DNA of 6,197 nt from a virus (lineage: Duplodnaviria; Heunggongvirae; Uroviricota; Caudoviricetes), in the IMG/VR virus record IMGVR_UViG_2541047125_000012. The stretch is one strand, 5' to 3'. This document shows, piece after piece, positions 1 to 6,197 of the stretch. The notes under the pieces are model-generated. The model had not been told where the DNA came from. It was given only the letters and a program-made list of their open reading frames with translations, and made no database searches. Made by a program: the position numbers and the translations under genes. The stretch's first letter is position 1; each line of letters starts with the position of its first letter.

Positions 1-182
1 CGCGCGTTACCCAGCTTGATTACGGGCAAATCCCCCCGGTTAACCTTGATTCTGGCCTGCGGATTTTTAACCGTGGCCCTTTTCAGCCTGGCCCTTTCCT
101 TTACCAGTTTCCGGCGTACTCTTGTCTCACGGGCAACCTGTGACGCCGACTGCGATATCGCGGATGAAGCAACGCGGTTAAT
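1..182 (-). pseudogene. Z: Inverted, 5'-truncated fragment of the tail completion protein Z gene (about codons 30-89), reading leftward out of the window.
   Basis: Minus-strand translation of 182->94 gives INRVASSAISQSASQVARETRVRRKLVKE, and the next codon (95->93, R) runs in frame into the copy of arm 2 (ARLKRATVKNPQ...). This matches what I recall as the native lambda gpZ segment just upstream of ARLKRATV. No start codon or N-terminal approx. 29 codons are present. Confidence 0.6.
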
Positions 183-275
183 GGCCAGGCTGAAAAGGGC
201 CACGGTTAAAAATCCGCAGGCCAGAATCAAGGTTAACCGGGGGGATTTGCCCGTAATCAAGCTGGGTAACGCGCG
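1..275. repeat. Perfect inverted repeat: arm 1 (1-93) is the exact reverse complement of arm 2 (183-275), 93/93 matches, with an 89-bp unique segment (94-182) between them. Arm 1 reaches the window edge, so the repeat may continue upstream.
   Basis: Base-by-base reverse-complement comparison done by hand. The match breaks at 94 vs 182 (c vs t, not complementary). The partner of position 276 would lie before position 1. Confidence 0.95.
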
Positions 276-588
276 GGTTGTCCTGTCCCGACGCAGGCGT
301 CGTAAAAAGGGGCAGCGTTCATCCCTGAAAGGTGGCGGCAGCGTGCTTGTGGTGGGAAACCGTCGTATTCCCGGCGCGTTTATTCAGCAACTGAAAAATG
401 GCCGGTGGCATGTCATGCAGCGTGTGGCCGGGAAAAACCGTTACCCCATTGATGTGGTGAAAATCCCGATGGCGGTGCCGCTGACCACGGCGTTTAAACA
501 GAATATTGAGCGGATACGGCGTGAACGTCTTCCGAAAGAGCTGGGCTATGCGCTGCAGCATCAACTGAGAATGGTAATAAAGCGATGA
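181..588 (+). CDS. Z: Tail completion protein Z, 5'-truncated: native codons approx. 59-192 are intact and the native start and N-terminus are absent. An in-frame ATG at 181-183 is created at the junction. The supplied ORF 16-588 is a chimeric read-through of the inverted arm, not the native gene.
   Basis: Translation from 184 (ARLKRATVKNPQARIKVNRGDLPVIKLGNARVVLSRRRRRKKGQRSS...LRMVIKR) matches recalled lambda gpZ. The TGA stop at 586-588 overlaps the U start (ATGA). Native gpZ is 192 aa by recollection, which would need a start near position 10, where the sequence is ccc. Confidence 0.8.
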   Translation: MARLKRATVKNPQARIKVNRGDLPVIKLGNARVVLSRRRRRKKGQRSSLKGGGSVLVVGNRRIPGAFIQQLKNGRWHVMQRVAGKNRYPIDVVKIPMAVPLTTAFKQNIERIRRERLPKELGYALQHQLRMVIKR

Positions 589-980
589 AACATACTGAAC
601 TCCGTGCAGCCGTACTGGATGCACTGGAGAAGCATGACACCGGGGCGACGTTTTTTGATGGTCGCCCCGCTGTTTTTGATGAGGCGGATTTTCCGGCAGT
701 TGCCGTTTATCTCACCGGCGCTGAATACACGGGCGAAGAGCTGGACAGCGATACCTGGCAGGCGGAGCTGCATATCGAAGTTTTCCTGCCTGCTCAGGTG
801 CCGGATTCAGAGCTGGATGCGTGGATGGAGTCCCGGATTTATCCGGTGATGAGCGATATCCCGGCACTATCAGATTTGATCACCAGTATGGTGGCCAGTG
901 GCTATGACTACCGGCGCGACGATGATGCGGGCCTGTGGAGTTCAGCCGATCTGACTTATGTCATTACCTATGAAATGTGA
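585..980 (+). CDS. U: Tail terminator protein U (tail tube terminator), 131 aa.
   Basis: ORF 585-980 ([36 protein letters not shown]...) matches recalled lambda gpU in sequence and length. The ATG overlaps the Z stop, and synteny is Z-U-V. Confidence 0.9.
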
Positions 981-1743: not shown

Positions 1744-2166
1744 ATGTTCCTGAAAACCGAATCATTTGAACATAACGGCGTGACCGTCACGCTTTCTGAA
1801 CTGTCAGCCCTGCAGCGTATTGAGCATCTCGCCCTGATGAAACGGCAGGCAGAACAGGCGGAGTCAGACAGCAACCGGAAGTTTACTGTGGAAGACGCCA
1901 TCAGAACCGGCGCTTTTGTGGTGGCGATGTCCCTGTGGCATAACCATCCGAAGAAGACGCAGATGCCGTCCATGAATGAAGCCGTTAAACAGATTGAGCA
2001 GGAAGTGCTTACCACCTGGCCCGCGGAGGCAATTTCTCATGCTGAAAACGTGGTGTACCGGCTGTCCGGTATGTATGAGTTTGTGGTGAATGATGCCCCT
2101 GAACAGGCAGAGGACGCCGGGCCTGCAGAGCCTGTTTCTGCGGGAAAGTGTTCGACGGTGAGCTGA
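1744..2166 (+). CDS. G: Tail assembly chaperone G, 140 aa (the zero-frame product).
   Basis: ORF 1744-2166 (MFLKTESFEHNGVTVTLSELSALQRIEHLALMKRQAEQAE...) matches recalled lambda gpG. It ends 18 nt after the slippery heptamer. Confidence 0.87.
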   Translation: MFLKTESFEHNGVTVTLSELSALQRIEHLALMKRQAEQAESDSNRKFTVEDAIRTGAFVVAMSLWHNHPKKTQMPSMNEAVKQIEQEVLTTWPAEAISHAENVVYRLSGMYEFVVNDAPEQAEDAGPAEPVSAGKCSTVS

Positions 2167-2582
2167 GTTTTGCCCTGAAACTGGCGCGCGAGATGGGGCG
2201 ACCCGACTGGCGTGCCATGCTTGCCGGGATGTCATCCACGGAGTATGCCGACTGGCACCGCTTTTACAGTACCCATTATTTTCATGATGTTCTGCTGGAT
2301 ATGCACTTTTCCGGGCTGACGTACACCGTGCTCAGCCTGTTTTTCAGCGATCCGGATATGCATCCGCTGGATTTCAGTCTGCTGAACCGGCGTGAGGCTG
2401 ACGAAGAGCCTGAAGATGATGTGCTGATGCAGAAAGCGGCAGGGCTTGCTGGAGGCGTTCGTTTTGGCCCGGACGGGAATGAAGTTATCCCCGCTTCCCC
2501 GGATGTGGCGGACATGACGGAGGATGACGTAATGCTGATGACAGTATCAGAAGGGATCGCAGGAGGAGTCCGGTATGGCTGA
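1744..2582 (+). CDS. T: Tail assembly chaperone G-T fusion made by -1 frameshift: join(1744..2148, 2148..2582). The T-frame part (2148-2582) has no independent initiation.
   Basis: T-frame ORF 2148-2582 (VFDGELSFALKLAREMGRPDWRAMLAGMSSTEYADWHRF...) matches the recalled lambda T region. Its stop (TGA 2580-2582) overlaps the H start (ATGGCTGA). Confidence 0.8.
2142..2148 (+). promoter_or_regulatory. Programmed -1 ribosomal frameshift slippery heptamer G GGA AAG, linking the G frame to the T frame.
   Basis: G-frame codons GGA (2143-2145) and AAG (2146-2148). The -1 frame opens at 2148 (GTG TTC GAC = VFD...) and runs to 2582 with no start codon or Shine-Dalgarno of its own. This matches the conserved tail-chaperone frameshift of lambda G/G-T. 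Confidence 0.8.
2561..2566 (+). promoter_or_regulatory. Shine-Dalgarno (AGGAGG) for H, 8 nt upstream of ATG 2575.
   Basis: gcAGGAGGagtccggtATG read directly; it lies inside the 3' end of the T frame. Confidence 0.7.
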
Positions 2583-5142
2583 ACCGGTAGGCGATCTGGT
2601 CGTTGATTTAAGTCTGGATGCGGCCAGATTTGACGAGCAGATGGCCAGAGTCAGGCGTCATTTTTCCGGTACGGAAAGTGATGCGAAAAAAACAGCGGCA
2701 GTCGTTGAACAGTCGATGAGCCGGCAGGCGCTGGCTGCACAGAAAGCGGGAATTTCCGTCGGGCAGTATAAAGCCGCCATGCGTATGCTGCCTGCGCAGT
2801 TCACTGACGTGGCCACGCAGCTTGCAGGTGGGCAAAGTCCGTGGCTGATCCTGCTGCAACAGGGGGGGCAGGTGAAGGACTCCTTCGGCGGGATGATCCC
2901 CATGTTCAGGGGGCTTGCCGGTGCGATCACCCTGCCGATGGTCGGGGTCACCTCGCTGGCGGTGGCGACAGGTGCGCTGGTGTACGCCTGGTACCAGGGA
3001 GATTCCACGCTTTCAGCGTTTAATAAAACCCTGGTTCTTTCCGGTAATCAGTCCGGACTGACTGCCGATCGCATGCTGACGCTCTCAAGAGCCGGGCAGG
3101 CAGCAGGGCTGACGTTTAACCAGGCGAGAGAGTCACTGGCAGCCCTGGTGAATGCCGGTGTGCGTGGTGGTGAACAGTTTGATGCCATCAACCAGAGTGT
3201 CGCGCGTTTTGCTTCTGCATCCGGTGTGGAGGTGGACAAGGTTGCAGAGGCTTTCGGAAAACTGACCACCGACCCTACGTCGGGGCTGATTGCGATGGTG
3301 CGCCAGTTCCGTAACGTGACGGCAGAGCAGATTGCGTATGTTGCGCAGCTGCAGCGTTCCGGTGATGAGGCCGGGGCCTTACAGGCGGCGAACGATATCG
3401 CCACGAAAGGCTTTGATGAGCAGACCCGTCGCCTGAAAGAAAACATGGGGACACTGGAGACCTGGGCGGATAAAACCGGGAAGGCATTCAAATCGATGTG
3501 GGATGCCATTCTGGATATCGGTCGTCCTGAGTCCTCAGCGGATATGCTCGCCAGTGCACAGAAGGCATTTGATGAGGCGGATAAAAAATGGCAGTGGTAC
3601 CAGAGCCGGAGCCAGCGCCGGGGAAAAACCGCCTCTTTCCGGGCCAACCTTCAGGGCGCATGGAATGACCGGGAAAATGCCCGTCTGGGGCTGGCAGCGG
3701 CCACGCTGCAGTCGGATATGGAAAAAGCCGGTGAACTGGCCGCCAGGGACCGGGCCGAACGGGACGCATCACAGCTGAAGTATACCGGAGAGGCGCAGAA
3801 GGCGTATGAGCGTCTGCTGACGCCGCTGGAGAAATATACCGCCCGTCAGGAAGAACTGAATAAGGCCCTGAAAGACGGGAAAATCCTGCGGGCGGATTAC
3901 AACACGCTGATGGCGGCGGCGAAAAAGGACTATGAAGCGACGCTGAAAAAGCCGAAACAGTCCGGCGTGAAGGTGTCTGCGGGCGATCGTCAGGAAGACA
4001 GTGCTCATGCTGCCCTGCTGACGCTTCAGGCAGAACTCCGGATGCTGGAGAAGCATGCCGGAGCGAATGAGAAAATCAGCCAGCAGCGCCGGGATTTGTG
4101 GAAGGCAGAAAGTCAGTTCGCGGTACTGGAGGAGGCGGCACAACGTCGCCAGCTGTCCGCACAGGAGAAATCCCTGCTGGCGCATAAAGACGAGACGCTG
4201 GAGTACAAACGCCAGCTGGCTGTACTTGGCGACAAGGTCACCTATCAGGAGCACCTGAACGCGCTGGCACAGCAGGCGGATAAATTCGCACAGCAACAAC
4301 GGGCAAAACGGGCCGCCATTGATGCAAAAAACCGGGGGCTGACTGACCGGCAGGCAGCGCGGGAAGCCACGGAACAGCGCCTGAAGGAACAGTATGGCGA
4401 TAATCCTCTGGCGCTGAATAACGTCATGTCAGAGCAGAAAAAGACCTGGGCAGCTGAAGACCAGCTTCGCGGGAGCTGGATGGCAGGCCTCAGGTCAGGC
4501 TGGAGTGAGTGGGAAGAGAGCGCCACGGACAGTATGTCGCAGGTTAAAAGTGCTGCCACGCAGACCTTTGATGGTATTGCACAGAATATGGCGGCGATGC
4601 TGACCGGCAGTGAACAGAACTGGCGCAGCTTCACCCGTTCCGTGCTGTCCATGATGACAGAAATTCTGCTTAAGCAGGCAATGGTGGGGATTGTCGGAAG
4701 TATAGGCAGCGCCATTGGCGGCGGCGCATCAGCGTCAGGCGGTACAGCCATTCAGGCAGCTGCGGCGAAATTCCATTTTGCGGCCGGAGGGTTTACGGGA
4801 ACCGGCGGCAAATATGAGCCAGCGGGGATTGTTCACCGTGGTGAATTTGTCTTCACGAAGGAGGCAACCAGCCGGATTGGCGTAGGAAATCTTTACCGGC
4901 TGATGCGCGGCTATGCCACCGGCGGTTATGTCGGTACACCGGGCAGCATGGCGGACAGCCGGTCGCAGGCGTCCGGGACGTTTGAGCAGAATAACCATGT
5001 GGTGATTAACAACGACGGCACGAACGGTCAGATAGGGCCACAGGCACTGAAGGCGGTTTATGACGTAGCCCGTAAGGCGGCAATGGATGTTGTGACCGGG
5101 CAGATGCGCGATGGTGGTCTGTTCTCCGGAGGTGGACGATGA
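2575..5142 (+). CDS. H: Tail tape measure protein H, 855 aa.
   Basis: ORF 2575-5142 (MAEPVGDLVVDLSLDAARFDEQMARVRRHF...MRDGGLFSGGGR) matches recalled lambda gpH. It has a long Ala/Gln/Glu/Lys/Arg-rich helical middle, a Gly-rich hydrophobic C-proximal segment, and sits between G-T and M. Confidence 0.92.
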   Translation: MAEPVGDLVVDLSLDAARFDEQMARVRRHFSGTESDAKKTAAVVEQSMSRQALAAQKAGISVGQYKAAMRMLPAQFTDVATQLAGGQSPWLILLQQGGQVKDSFGGMIPMFRGLAGAITLPMVGVTSLAVATGALVYAWYQGDSTLSAFNKTLVLSGNQSGLTADRMLTLSRAGQAAGLTFNQARESLAALVNAGVRGGEQFDAINQSVARFASASGVEVDKVAEAFGKLTTDPTSGLIAMVRQFRNVTAEQIAYVAQLQRSGDEAGALQAANDIATKGFDEQTRRLKENMGTLETWADKTGKAFKSMWDAILDIGRPESSADMLASAQKAFDEADKKWQWYQSRSQRRGKTASFRANLQGAWNDRENARLGLAAATLQSDMEKAGELAARDRAERDASQLKYTGEAQKAYERLLTPLEKYTARQEELNKALKDGKILRADYNTLMAAAKKDYEATLKKPKQSGVKVSAGDRQEDSAHAALLTLQAELRMLEKHAGANEKISQQRRDLWKAESQFAVLEEAAQRRQLSAQEKSLLAHKDETLEYKRQLAVLGDKVTYQEHLNALAQQADKFAQQQRAKRAAIDAKNRGLTDRQAAREATEQRLKEQYGDNPLALNNVMSEQKKTWAAEDQLRGSWMAGLRSGWSEWEESATDSMSQVKSAATQTFDGIAQNMAAMLTGSEQNWRSFTRSVLSMMTEILLKQAMVGIVGSIGSAIGGGASASGGTAIQAAAAKFHFAAGGFTGTGGKYEPAGIVHRGEFVFTKEATSRIGVGNLYRLMRGYATGGYVGTPGSMADSRSQASGTFEQNNHVVINNDGTNGQIGPQALKAVYDVARKAAMDVVTGQMRDGGLFSGGGR
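5128..5132 (+). promoter_or_regulatory. Shine-Dalgarno (GGAGG) for M, 6 nt upstream of ATG 5139.
   Basis: ctccGGAGGtggacgATG read directly; it lies inside the last codons of H. Confidence 0.65.
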
Positions 5143-5468
5143 AAACCTTCCGCTGGAAAGTGAAACCCGGTATGGATGTGGCTTCGGCCCCTTCCGTAAG
5201 AAAGGTGCGCTTTGGTGATGGCTATTCCCAGCGAGCGCCTGCCGGGCTGAATGCCGACCTGAAAACGTACAGCGTGACGCTTTCTGTTCCCCGTTGGGAG
5301 GCCACGGCGCTTGAGTCGTTTCTGGCTGAGCACGGGGGCTGGAAGGCCTTTCTGTGGACGCCGCCTTATGAGTGGCGGCAGATAAAGGTGACCTGCGCAA
5401 AATGGTCGTCGCGGGTCAGTATGCTGCGTGTTGAGTTCAGCGCAGAGTTTGAACAGGTGGTGAACTGA
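5139..5468 (+). CDS. M: Tail tip assembly protein M, 109 aa.
   Basis: ORF 5139-5468 (MKTFRWKVKPGMDVASAPSVRKVRFGDGYSQRAPAGLNADLKTYSV...) matches recalled lambda gpM. ATGA overlap with the H stop and TGATG overlap with the L start. Confidence 0.88.
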   Translation: MKTFRWKVKPGMDVASAPSVRKVRFGDGYSQRAPAGLNADLKTYSVTLSVPRWEATALESFLAEHGGWKAFLWTPPYEWRQIKVTCAKWSSRVSMLRVEFSAEFEQVVN

Positions 5469-6166
5469 TGCAGGATATCCGGCAGGAAACACTGAATGAA
5501 TGCACCCGTGCGGAGCAGTCGGCCAGCGTGGTGCTCTGGGAAATCGATCTGACAGAGGTCGGTGGAGAACGTTATTTTTTCTGTAATGAGCAGAACGAAA
5601 AAGGTGAGCCGGTCACCTGGCAGGGGCGACAGTATCAGCCGTATCCCATTCAGGGGAGTGGTTTTGAACTGAATGGCAAAGGCACCAGTACGCGCCCCAC
5701 GCTGACGGTTTCTAACCTGTACGGTATGGTCACCGGGATGGCGGAAGATCTGCAGAGTCTGGTCGGCGGAACGGTGGTCCGGCGTAAGGTTTACGCCCGT
5801 TTTCTGGATGCGGTGAACTTCGTCAACGGAAACAGTGACGCCGATCCGGAGCAGGAGGTGATCAGCCGCTGGCGCATTGAGCAGTGCAGCGAACTGAGCG
5901 CGGTGAGTGCCTCTTTTGTACTGTCCACGCCGACGGAAACGGACGGCGCTGTTTTTCCGGGACGTATCATGCTGGCCAACACCTGCACCTGGACCTATCG
6001 CGGCGATGAGTGCGGTTATCACGGTCCGGCGGTCGCGGATGAATATGACCAGCCAACGTCCGATATCACGAAGGATAAATGCAGCAAATGCCTGAGCGGT
6101 TGTAAGTTCCGCAATAACGTCGGCAACTTTGGCGGCTTCCTTTCCATTAACAAACTTTCGCAGTAA
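5468..6166 (+). CDS. L: Tail tip protein L, 232 aa, with a Cys-rich C-terminal region (putative Fe-S site).
   Basis: ORF 5468-6166 (MQDIRQETLNECTRAEQSASVVLWEIDLTEVGGERYFFCNEQNEKGEP...FGGFLSINKLSQ) matches recalled lambda gpL. AGGTGG Shine-Dalgarno at 5454-5459. Confidence 0.9.
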   Translation: MQDIRQETLNECTRAEQSASVVLWEIDLTEVGGERYFFCNEQNEKGEPVTWQGRQYQPYPIQGSGFELNGKGTSTRPTLTVSNLYGMVTGMAEDLQSLVGGTVVRRKVYARFLDAVNFVNGNSDADPEQEVISRWRIEQCSELSAVSASFVLSTPTETDGAVFPGRIMLANTCTWTYRGDECGYHGPAVADEYDQPTSDITKDKCSKCLSGCKFRNNVGNFGGFLSINKLSQ

Positions 6167-6171
6167 ATCCC

Positions 6172-6197
6172 ATGACACAGACAGAATCAGCGATTCT
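6172..6197 (+). CDS. K: Tail tip assembly protein K, 5' end only (first 8 codons); it continues past the window.
   Basis: ATG at 6172, 5 nt after the L stop, encoding MTQTESAI..., which matches my recollection of the lambda gpK N-terminus and the expected L-K synteny. Too short to confirm on its own. Confidence 0.5.

What the first reader, a model, noticed from the sequence alone, without database searches (positions are those of the whole stretch)
1..275. Head-to-head inverted-duplication junction inside tail gene Z
Seen directly: 1-93 is the exact reverse complement of 183-275 (93/93). The 89-bp segment between them is not foreign DNA. Read on the minus strand (182->94) it translates to INRVASSAISQSASQVARETRVRRKLVKE and runs in frame into the minus-strand copy of the arm (R-ARLKRATV...), which is what I recall as native gpZ residues approx. 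30-58. So the window reads as reverse-complement of Z codons approx. 30-89 joined directly to Z codons 59-192 and the rest of the tail operon. The two copies break at different points (an 89-bp asymmetry), so this is not a simple inversion. A perfect arm means the event is very recent or not biological. Candidate origins are a template-switch tandem-inversion-duplication in a prophage, a fold-back chimeric read or assembly at a contig end, or a cloning artefact. The arm touches position 1, so the mirrored copy may continue upstream.
Basis: partly seen in the sequence, partly recalled or inferred. Interest (0 to 1): 0.75.

Follow-up and report, generated by a model that had tools for sequence, protein, structure and literature searches.

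The report
Fold-back chimera at draft contig end
The mirrored piece of phage tail gene Z is really in the sequence, but it sits at the very end of a short draft-assembly contig of an E. coli O157-type prophage and is most likely a library or assembly chimera, not a feature of the living genome.

Summary
Window 1-93 is the exact reverse complement of 183-275. The 89-nt spacer is tail gene Z read backwards.

Compared with E. coli O157:H7 prophage Sp8:
- Window 1-187 is the reverse complement of Z nt 80-266, at 100% identity.
- Window 183-588 is Z nt 174-579, at 100% identity.
- The two sources overlap in a 5-nt microhomology, GGCCA (183-187). Its partner TGGCC lies at 89-93. Chance gives this at p about 0.006.

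The window is the whole 6,197-bp contig AVRK01000061.1 of the draft genome of E. coli 09BKT024447, so the arm ends at a contig end.

- The junction is absent from 5,426 complete E. coli genomes, from the phage and plasmid collections, and from three contig collections.
- The same contig has a second private patchwork. H gene 2908-3894 is copied exactly from another O157 prophage, with switches inside 39-nt and 35-nt shared stretches.

Best explanation (about 0.8): an in-vitro fold-back chimeric fragment was taken up at the end of a tangled prophage contig. A real tandem-inversion-duplication-type junction (about 0.13) cannot be excluded without the reads. Interest is low.

The parts
1..93 (-). 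Left arm. Reverse complement of Z nt 174-266, ending exactly at the contig end.
   Evidence: 93/93 reverse complement of 183-275. 100% identical to Sakai Sp8 and TR01 Z on the minus strand. The window is the whole contig.
94..182 (-). Loop or spacer. Reverse complement of Z nt 85-173 (codons 29-57 plus 2 nt).
   Evidence: 100% identical to Z of O157:H7 genomes on the minus strand, and single copy in TR01. Alignment A1.
89..93 (.). TGGCC, the intrastrand pairing partner of the junction microhomology.
   Evidence: Read directly from the sequence. The arms are in register.
183..187 (.). GGCCA, the 5-nt junction microhomology shared by both parental readings (reverse complement of Z 80-84, and Z 174-178).
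   Evidence: The minus-strand match to TR01 and Sakai runs 1-187 and the plus-strand match starts at 183. Simulated P(>=5 nt) = 0.006.
183..275 (+). Right arm. Z nt 174-266 in native orientation.
183..588 (+). 3' two-thirds of tail gene Z (nt 174-579, residues 59-192), continuous with U.
   Evidence: 100% identical to Sakai Sp8 Z. Pfam PF06763 on the called 113-aa product.
181..183 (+). ATG created by the junction, in frame with Z residues 59-192. Probably incidental.
   Evidence: Sequence and frame-0 translation.
2908..3894 (+). Second chimeric feature of the same contig. The central part of tape-measure gene H is 100% identical to H of a different O157 prophage. Switch intervals are 2869-2907 and 3895-3929.
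   Evidence: Informative-site analysis against L014 and L025, with no private substitutions. The other prophage lies at TR01 1.20 Mb.
6172..6197 (+). Start of gene K and the right contig end. It lies in sequence that is multi-copy in O157 genomes, so this is an ordinary repeat-induced break.
   Evidence: TR01 has 2 places for the sequence before the end and 4 places for the sequence after it. K coordinates come from L014.

Best explanation
The 275-nt hairpin is a fold-back chimera that does not exist in the bacterial chromosome.

Proposed steps:
1. A single-stranded piece of the bottom strand of prophage gene Z had its 3' end trimmed back to Z nt 80.
2. It snapped back on itself. Its terminal GGCCA paired with TGGCC 89 nt upstream in the same strand (7 of 8 bases pair if 180-187 against 89-96 is counted).
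3. [quoted passage not shown]
4. At least one read from such a molecule was taken into the assembly at the end of a small contig threaded through the tangled, multi-copy lambdoid tail genes of an O157-type E. coli.

Shown: the anatomy of the junction, the microhomology, that the arm ends at a contig end, that the junction is unique to this record, and that the same contig has a second patchwork join.

Inferred: that the fold-back arose in vitro, and that the assembler rather than the cell joined it to the operon.
For: - The window is identical to the whole 6,197-bp contig AVRK01000061.1 of draft assembly GCA_000462345.2, E. coli 09BKT024447. The arm therefore stops exactly at a contig end.
- Every base of 1-187 and 183-2868 is 100% identical to native Sp8-type sequence. 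Only the order is abnormal.
- The junction has a 5-nt short reverse-complementary match, P = 0.006 by chance. Its two halves lie 89 nt apart. This matches the published profile of artefact chimeric fragments made during end repair: short reverse-complementary regions of about 6 bp, often from adjacent DNA, giving inverted repeats (PMC8458033).
- The junction was not found elsewhere. No single matching place covers at least 80% of a query across the junction in 5,426 complete E. coli genomes, in the phage records searched or in 72,556 plasmids. The exact 23-mer is absent from IMG/VR, from GTDB representative genomes and from JGI metagenomes.
- All 13 contigs read that carry the same 113-aa Z fragment were examined or represented. 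Only this one has the inverted repeat.
- The ten places shown for the identical gpU all have FII followed by an intact 192-aa Z and then U.
- The same contig carries a second private patchwork. H 2908-3894 is an exact copy from another O157 prophage, with switches inside 39-nt and 35-nt shared stretches and no private substitution. This hybrid H protein occurs on one contig only in the protein collection and in no complete genome. Two private rearrangements built only from standard sequence in 6.2 kb point to mis-threading.
Against: - Z nt 1-173 is single copy in O157:H7 TR01. There is therefore no repeat reason for a contig break inside Z. A rare chimeric read would normally be outvoted by native reads, so the break suggests the junction had real read support or that the native path was missing.
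- A short interrupted inverted repeat at the junction is also exactly what in-vivo fold-back models predict (PMC4689423).
- An arm shorter than about 100 nt is what any assembler would output even if the mirrored copy were long, because reads or k-mers cannot be used twice. This is my inference.
- The sequencing platform, assembler and read depth of AVRK01 are unknown to me. No paper was found.
- The hybrid H could be a genuine gene conversion between co-resident prophages.
Confidence: 0.8

Rival explanations
1. A real in-vivo fold-back template switch in prophage Sp8 of strain 09BKT024447, i.e. one junction of a tandem inversion duplication (TID or ODIRA type). A nascent strand ending at Z nt 80 paired through GGCCA/TGGCC with its own or the sister strand 89 nt away and copied back through Z, U, V and beyond. 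The mirrored copy would be long, and the assembler cut it at 93 nt. It could be fixed in the strain or present in a subpopulation, for example replicating induced phage DNA.
For: - The 5-nt interrupted inverted repeat at the junction is non-random. It is the junction type described for TID and ODIRA (PMC4689423).
- The contig breaks inside single-copy Z, which is easier to understand if the junction had substantial read support.
- The perfect arms fit a very recent event.
Against: - The junction is seen in one draft contig only and ends at the contig end.
- The second required junction and a copy-number signal are not observable here.
- Z is needed for a functional tail, and no selection for amplification of tail genes is evident. 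TIDs are unstable without selection (established knowledge, Kugelberg and Roth work as cited in PMC4689423).
- The same contig shows a second patchwork that looks like mis-threading.
Confidence: 0.13
2. A purely computational misjoin. The assembler connected a graph node to its own reverse complement with no chimeric molecule or read behind it.
For: - The location is at a contig end.
- There is evidence of path switching between prophages in H at 35-39-nt shared stretches.
Against: - The two sources share only 5 nt (7 of 8 with one mismatch) at the join. That is far below any usable k-mer or overlap length, unlike the 35-39-nt stretches at the H switches.
- A 5-nt microhomology is unexpected for a random join (P = 0.006). 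It points to a base-pairing step in real DNA.
Confidence: 0.05
3. A cloning artefact or vector-borne rearranged lambda fragment.
For: None found. Lambda tail genes do occur in vectors (general knowledge).
Against: - No plasmid record covers the junction. The best places cover 56% of the query.
- The sequence is O157 Sp8-type rather than lambda-type. It is 100% identical to Sakai Sp8 and about 98% identical to lambda-like phages.
- The record is a whole-genome shotgun contig.
Confidence: 0.02

Closest known systems
Artefact chimeric fragments or reads formed at short reverse-complementary regions during end repair (Haile et al. model, as described in PMC8458033; also PMC8674242 and PMC10908179)
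   Same: The two segments come from opposite strands of adjacent DNA, 89 nt apart. They are joined at a short reverse-complementary match of 5 nt (typical about 6). The product is an inverted repeat with a native-sequence loop. It is private to one data set.
   Different: Those artefacts are normally seen as rare split reads, not in a consensus contig. They are best documented for FFPE or damaged human DNA. Read support here is unknown.
Tandem inversion duplication (Kugelberg/Roth, Salmonella) and ODIRA inverted triplication junctions (PMC4689423)
   Same: A head-to-head junction that preserves a short, interrupted inverted repeat and the intervening native sequence. The arms are perfect.
   Different: No second junction, no third copy, no copy-number evidence, and no selective reason. 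The structure is known only from a contig end.
Native lambda-family tail gene Z (Pfam PF06763) in prophage Sp8 of E. coli O157:H7 Sakai (ECs_1638)
   Same: All 275 nt are 100% identical to this gene. The downstream operon U-V-G/T-H-M-L-K is collinear.
   Different: Nt 1-79 are missing, nt 80-266 are present reversed, and nt 174-266 are present twice.
Fold-back artefacts in long reads (PMC12870357) and missed-adapter palindromic reads
   Same: The read or contig turns back onto its own reverse complement.
   Different: Missed-adapter palindromes, as I recall them, are symmetric at the fragment end or carry adapter sequence, and their arms are kilobases long. Here the loop is 89 nt of native sequence with a microhomology. 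I did not read this paper in detail, so the comparison rests on the abstract and general knowledge.

Membership tests
Lambda-type tail gene Z (Minor_tail_Z, PF06763) | Sequence identity or homology to Z on both sides of the junction | tested here: met
   Window 1-187 (minus strand) and 183-588 (plus strand) are 100% identical to Sakai Sp8 and TR01 Z. PF06763 hits both called products.
Lambda-type tail gene Z (Minor_tail_Z, PF06763) | Intact 192-codon reading frame preceded by FII | tested here: not met
   Codons 1-26 are absent. The frame is broken by the inversion and no FII lies upstream, because the contig ends. Native loci have FII followed by Z of 192 aa.
Library-preparation artefact chimeric fragment (short reverse-complementary region model) | A short reverse-complementary match at the breakpoint that maps to both parental alignments | tested here: met
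   GGCCA at 183-187 belongs to both alignments. Its partner TGGCC is at 89-93. P = 0.006 by chance.
Library-preparation artefact chimeric fragment (short reverse-complementary region model) | The two parts come from nearby DNA on opposite strands and are otherwise unaltered | tested here: met
   Z nt 80 and Z nt 174 are 89 nt apart. Both parts are 100% native.
Library-preparation artefact chimeric fragment (short reverse-complementary region model) | Supported by one or very few molecules, with the native arrangement present at full depth in the same sample | not testable with these tools
   No reads and no other contigs of AVRK01 are accessible. No methods paper was found.
Library-preparation artefact chimeric fragment (short reverse-complementary region model) | Absent from independent assemblies of related genomes | tested here: met
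Tandem inversion duplication / ODIRA junction | A head-to-head junction at a pre-existing short interrupted inverted repeat | tested here: met
   Native Z has TGGCC (nt 80-84) and GGCCA (nt 174-178). The model is described in PMC4689423.
Tandem inversion duplication / ODIRA junction | The inverted copy extends well beyond the junction, and there is a second (tail-to-tail) junction and a third, direct copy | not testable with these tools
   The contig ends 93 nt into the arm. There is no other long inverted repeat in the window.
Tandem inversion duplication / ODIRA junction | Raised copy number (2-3x) of the included segment | not testable with these tools
   No coverage data.
Site-specific invertible segment (Hin/Gin/Cin type) | A recombinase gene nearby, with short inverted crossover sites flanking a segment found in both orientations | tested here: not met
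   Only the tail genes Z, U, V, G, T, H, M and L are called. The structure is a duplication with an offset, not a flip. The native orientation is universal.

The most novel reading that the evidence does not exclude
The junction is real in the DNA of E. coli 09BKT024447. It would be a natural-isolate example of a fold-back template switch (a TID or ODIRA-type head-to-head junction) inside prophage Sp8. It would have formed at a 5-bp interrupted inverted repeat, perhaps in replicating induced phage DNA, and would inactivate the tail-completion gene Z.
Probability: 0.13. Interest if true: 0.35.

Novelty: not a real feature. Interest (0 to 1): 0.08.

Why it matters
Mainly as quality control. A public draft genome record (AVRK01000061.1) carries a 182-187-nt reversed end and probably a mis-threaded H gene. 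As a result, databases hold a truncated 'minor tail Z family protein', a reversed Z fragment and a unique hybrid tape-measure protein (WP_021500179.1) that may not exist in nature. It also shows a useful recipe: an inverted repeat that touches a contig end, is built from 100% native sequence, and has a few bases of microhomology should be treated as a fold-back chimera until reads prove otherwise. If it were real, it would be a modestly interesting natural example of a tandem-inversion-duplication junction in a prophage.

Tried and rejected
- I first scored the junction as blunt, using phage PhiR26_1 as parent. I corrected this when the O157-type parent showed a 5-nt overlap.
- I looked for the junction elsewhere. 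Exact 23-mer scans of viral, genome and metagenome contigs found nothing. Megablast against phages, E. coli genomes and plasmids found no place spanning it.
- Look-up of the 195-aa edge-to-stop product found nothing.
- Look-up of the 135-aa junction-ATG product found only an unrelated contig (L002). There a small indel in Z happens to create the same ATG. It has no inverted repeat.
- I tested whether Z is a repeat boundary that would explain the contig break. It is not: Z nt 1-84 and 85-173 are single copy in TR01. Other draft contigs that end inside Z (L008, L009) have no hairpin.
- I tried to find the sequencing and assembly method for AVRK01 / strain 09BKT024447 in the literature. There were no hits. 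The 228-STEC genome announcement (PMC4125765) does not list this strain in the part of its accession table that I read (part 1 of 2), and a full-text search for the strain name found no paper.
- I tried to infer the assembler's k from the arm length (93) and from the right contig end. This was inconclusive, because the compared prophage K gene is divergent. The arm length fits k of about 93-94 or simply reads of about 100 nt (inference only).
- Rejected: a site-specific invertible segment, a cloning artefact, an IS or foreign insertion in the spacer (the spacer is native Z), and recombination between inversely oriented prophages (that would join equal positions, not positions offset by 89 nt).

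Full report
**1. The observation**

Window 1-93 is the exact reverse complement of 183-275, 93 of 93 bases. The first non-complementary pair is 94/182. The repeat finder reports the same pair, extended to 96 nt at 99%. Nothing else in the window comes close: the next inverted pair is 37 nt at 73%. As single-stranded DNA, 1-275 folds into one long hairpin of -145 kcal/mol, z = -26.

**2. What the pieces are**

The window encodes a lambda-type tail operon:
- Z (3' part), U, V, G and T
- the G GGA AAG slippery site at 2142
- H, M, L and the first 26 nt of K

Window 180-1000 matches Z-U-V of many lambdoid phages on the plus strand. Window 1-182 matches Z on the opposite strand in the same records (alignment).

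The true parent is the O157:H7 type. Against prophage Sp8 of strain Sakai and its counterpart in strain TR01:
- Window 1-187 is 100% identical to the reverse complement of Z nt 80-266.
- Window 183-588 is 100% identical to Z nt 174-579.

The structure is a fold-back, not an inversion.

The two parental readings overlap in GGCCA (183-187). This equals both Z 174-178 and the reverse complement of Z 80-84. Its intrastrand partner TGGCC lies at 89-93. Counting 180-187 against 89-96, 7 of 8 bases pair. I simulated 200,000 random nearby fold-back junctions in Sp8 DNA. Only 0.6% had 5 nt or more of microhomology. The join was therefore made by a base-pairing step in real DNA, either a snap-back or a template switch. 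It was not made by blunt ligation, and it was not made by software alone.

**3. Where the window comes from**

The exact 855-aa H protein occurs on a single record: contig AVRK01000061.1 of NCBI draft assembly GCA_000462345.2. That contig is 6,197 bp long and identical to the window. Protein names give the strain as Escherichia coli 09BKT024447. Position 1 is therefore a contig end, and the arm stops exactly there.

The right end of the contig lies in L/K sequence that is multi-copy in O157 genomes, which is an ordinary repeat break. The left end lies in Z, which is single copy in TR01. That makes the left end anomalous.

**4. Is the junction seen anywhere else?**

No.
- In 5,426 complete E. 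coli genomes, 3,500 have matches but none covers the junction.
- No phage record and no plasmid record spans it.
- The exact 23-mer across the junction is absent from IMG/VR, from GTDB representative genomes and from JGI metagenomes.
- Thirteen contigs read encode the same 113-aa Z fragment. The others owe it to a G6-to-G5 frameshift, a deletion, or a plain contig end. None of them has an inverted repeat.
- The identical gpU is on record in more than 50,000 blocks of the collection. The ten places shown all have FII followed by an intact 192-aa Z and then U.

**5. A second oddity in the same contig**

Outside 2908-3894, the window is 100% identical to Sp8. Inside that interval it is 100% identical to the H gene of a different prophage of the same O157 genomes, at TR01 1.20 Mb. 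The switches fall within stretches of 39 nt (2869-2907) and 35 nt (3895-3929) where the two H genes are identical. There is not one private substitution.

This hybrid H is on one contig only in the protein collection. No complete genome has it: the best whole-window identity is 95%. It could be a genuine gene conversion. Still, two private rearrangements made wholly of standard sequence within 6.2 kb are most simply read as a contig threaded wrongly through a tangle of near-identical prophage genes.

**6. Mechanism**

Best explanation, about 0.8: a single-stranded Z fragment snapped back through GGCCA/TGGCC and was filled in during library preparation. At least one read from it was built into the end of this contig. 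This fits the published description of artefact chimeric fragments. Those form at short reverse-complementary regions of about 6 bp, often from adjacent DNA, are filled in by T4 DNA polymerase during end repair, and yield inverted repeats (PMC8458033).

- Shown: the anatomy of the junction, the microhomology, the contig-end position, the uniqueness, and the second patchwork.
- Inferred: the in-vitro origin.

The main rival, about 0.13, is a real in-vivo fold-back template switch of the tandem-inversion-duplication or ODIRA type. Its junctions also sit at short interrupted inverted repeats (PMC4689423).

Two points favour the rival. A break inside single-copy Z suggests the junction had more than trivial read support. 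An arm of 93 nt is also what an assembler would output even for a long mirrored copy, because reads or k-mers cannot be used twice (my inference).

Several points count against the rival. The junction is private. There is no second junction and no copy-number evidence. No selection is evident. The same contig also carries the mis-threading signal in H.

A purely computational misjoin (about 0.05) is unlikely, because 5-8 nt is far below any overlap or k-mer length. A cloning artefact (about 0.02) has no support.

**7. Comparison with known things, and verdict**

Everything here is ordinary Sp8 sequence. The only unusual element is the order of 187 nt at a contig end. It matches a known class of sequencing and assembly artefact. 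It fails, or cannot be tested for, the further features that define a tandem inversion duplication.

I could not obtain reads, coverage, sister contigs or the assembly method. The artefact verdict is therefore probable, not proven. The read-mapping test in the next steps would settle it. Interest is low (0.08). If the junction were real it would be a modest curiosity (about 0.35).

Noticed in passing
window 2869-3929 (H gene 2575-5142): The tape-measure gene is an exact patchwork. Flanks are Sp8-type and the centre (2908-3894) is 100% identical to H of another O157 prophage (TR01 1.20 Mb). Switches fall in 39-nt and 35-nt shared stretches. The resulting 855-aa protein (WP_021500179.1 / ERE17901.1) is on one contig only. 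It is either an assembly mis-threading or a private gene conversion.
   Followed up: yes
window 181-183: The fold-back junction creates an ATG in frame with Z residues 59-192 (MARLKRATV...). No obvious Shine-Dalgarno sequence lies upstream. Probably incidental.
   Followed up: partly
window 238-243 (G6 run in Z; mirrored C6 at 33-38); L004 and L005: The G6 run in Z is G5 in several other genomes (e.g. AEZK02000026.1 and CP026641.1). This splits Z into 81-86-aa and 113-aa ORFs. It is a recurrent homopolymer frameshift, or a sequencing error, in this gene.
   Followed up: partly
L002 (JAQDTW010000058.1, GCA_027675025.1) 678-860: This Z gene has a 5-nt insertion near its start (ATGGCCATATCATAAAAGG). 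It also has a 6-to-1-nt replacement at nt 168-173 giving AAATGGCCAGG. The two changes together restore the frame, and the second creates the same 135-aa ORF as the window's junction ATG. A run of N lies at 374-383. The protein is named as Escherichia albertii.
   Followed up: no
L005 (CP026641.1) 1920-5733: A degraded prophage in a complete genome. Truncated terminase A lies about 70 nt from a 5'-truncated Z, and V appears fused to tail-fibre domains in a 669-aa product (Phage_TTP_12 + Phage_fiber_2 + Collar).
   Followed up: no
L025 (TR01 1,201,358-1,202,346): The second O157 prophage, the donor type of the H patch, has a major capsid gene truncated after 264 nt and abutting V. It therefore lacks FI, FII, Z and U, which is a natural internal deletion.
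   Followed up: no
window 2142-2148: The lambda-type G GGA AAG slippery heptamer for the G-T -1 frameshift is present where the G (1744-2166) and T (2148-2582) frames overlap. This is the expected arrangement.
   Followed up: partly
window 675-689 and 3568-3582: An exact 15-nt direct repeat, TTTGATGAGGCGGAT, occurs in U and in H. About 0.02 such pairs are expected by chance in 6.2 kb (my estimate). No explanation was sought.
   Followed up: no
Z nt 1-84 in L013 versus L014: TR01 and Sakai Z genes differ only at nt 42, 66, 72, 73 and 75, and upstream. They are identical from nt 76 on. A mosaic boundary between phage lineages therefore lies just upstream of the fold-back breakpoint at nt 80-85.
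   Followed up: partly
window 1-6 and 270-275: The contig starts with the palindromic hexamer CGCGCG, at the outer edge of the arms. Probably a coincidence.
   Followed up: no
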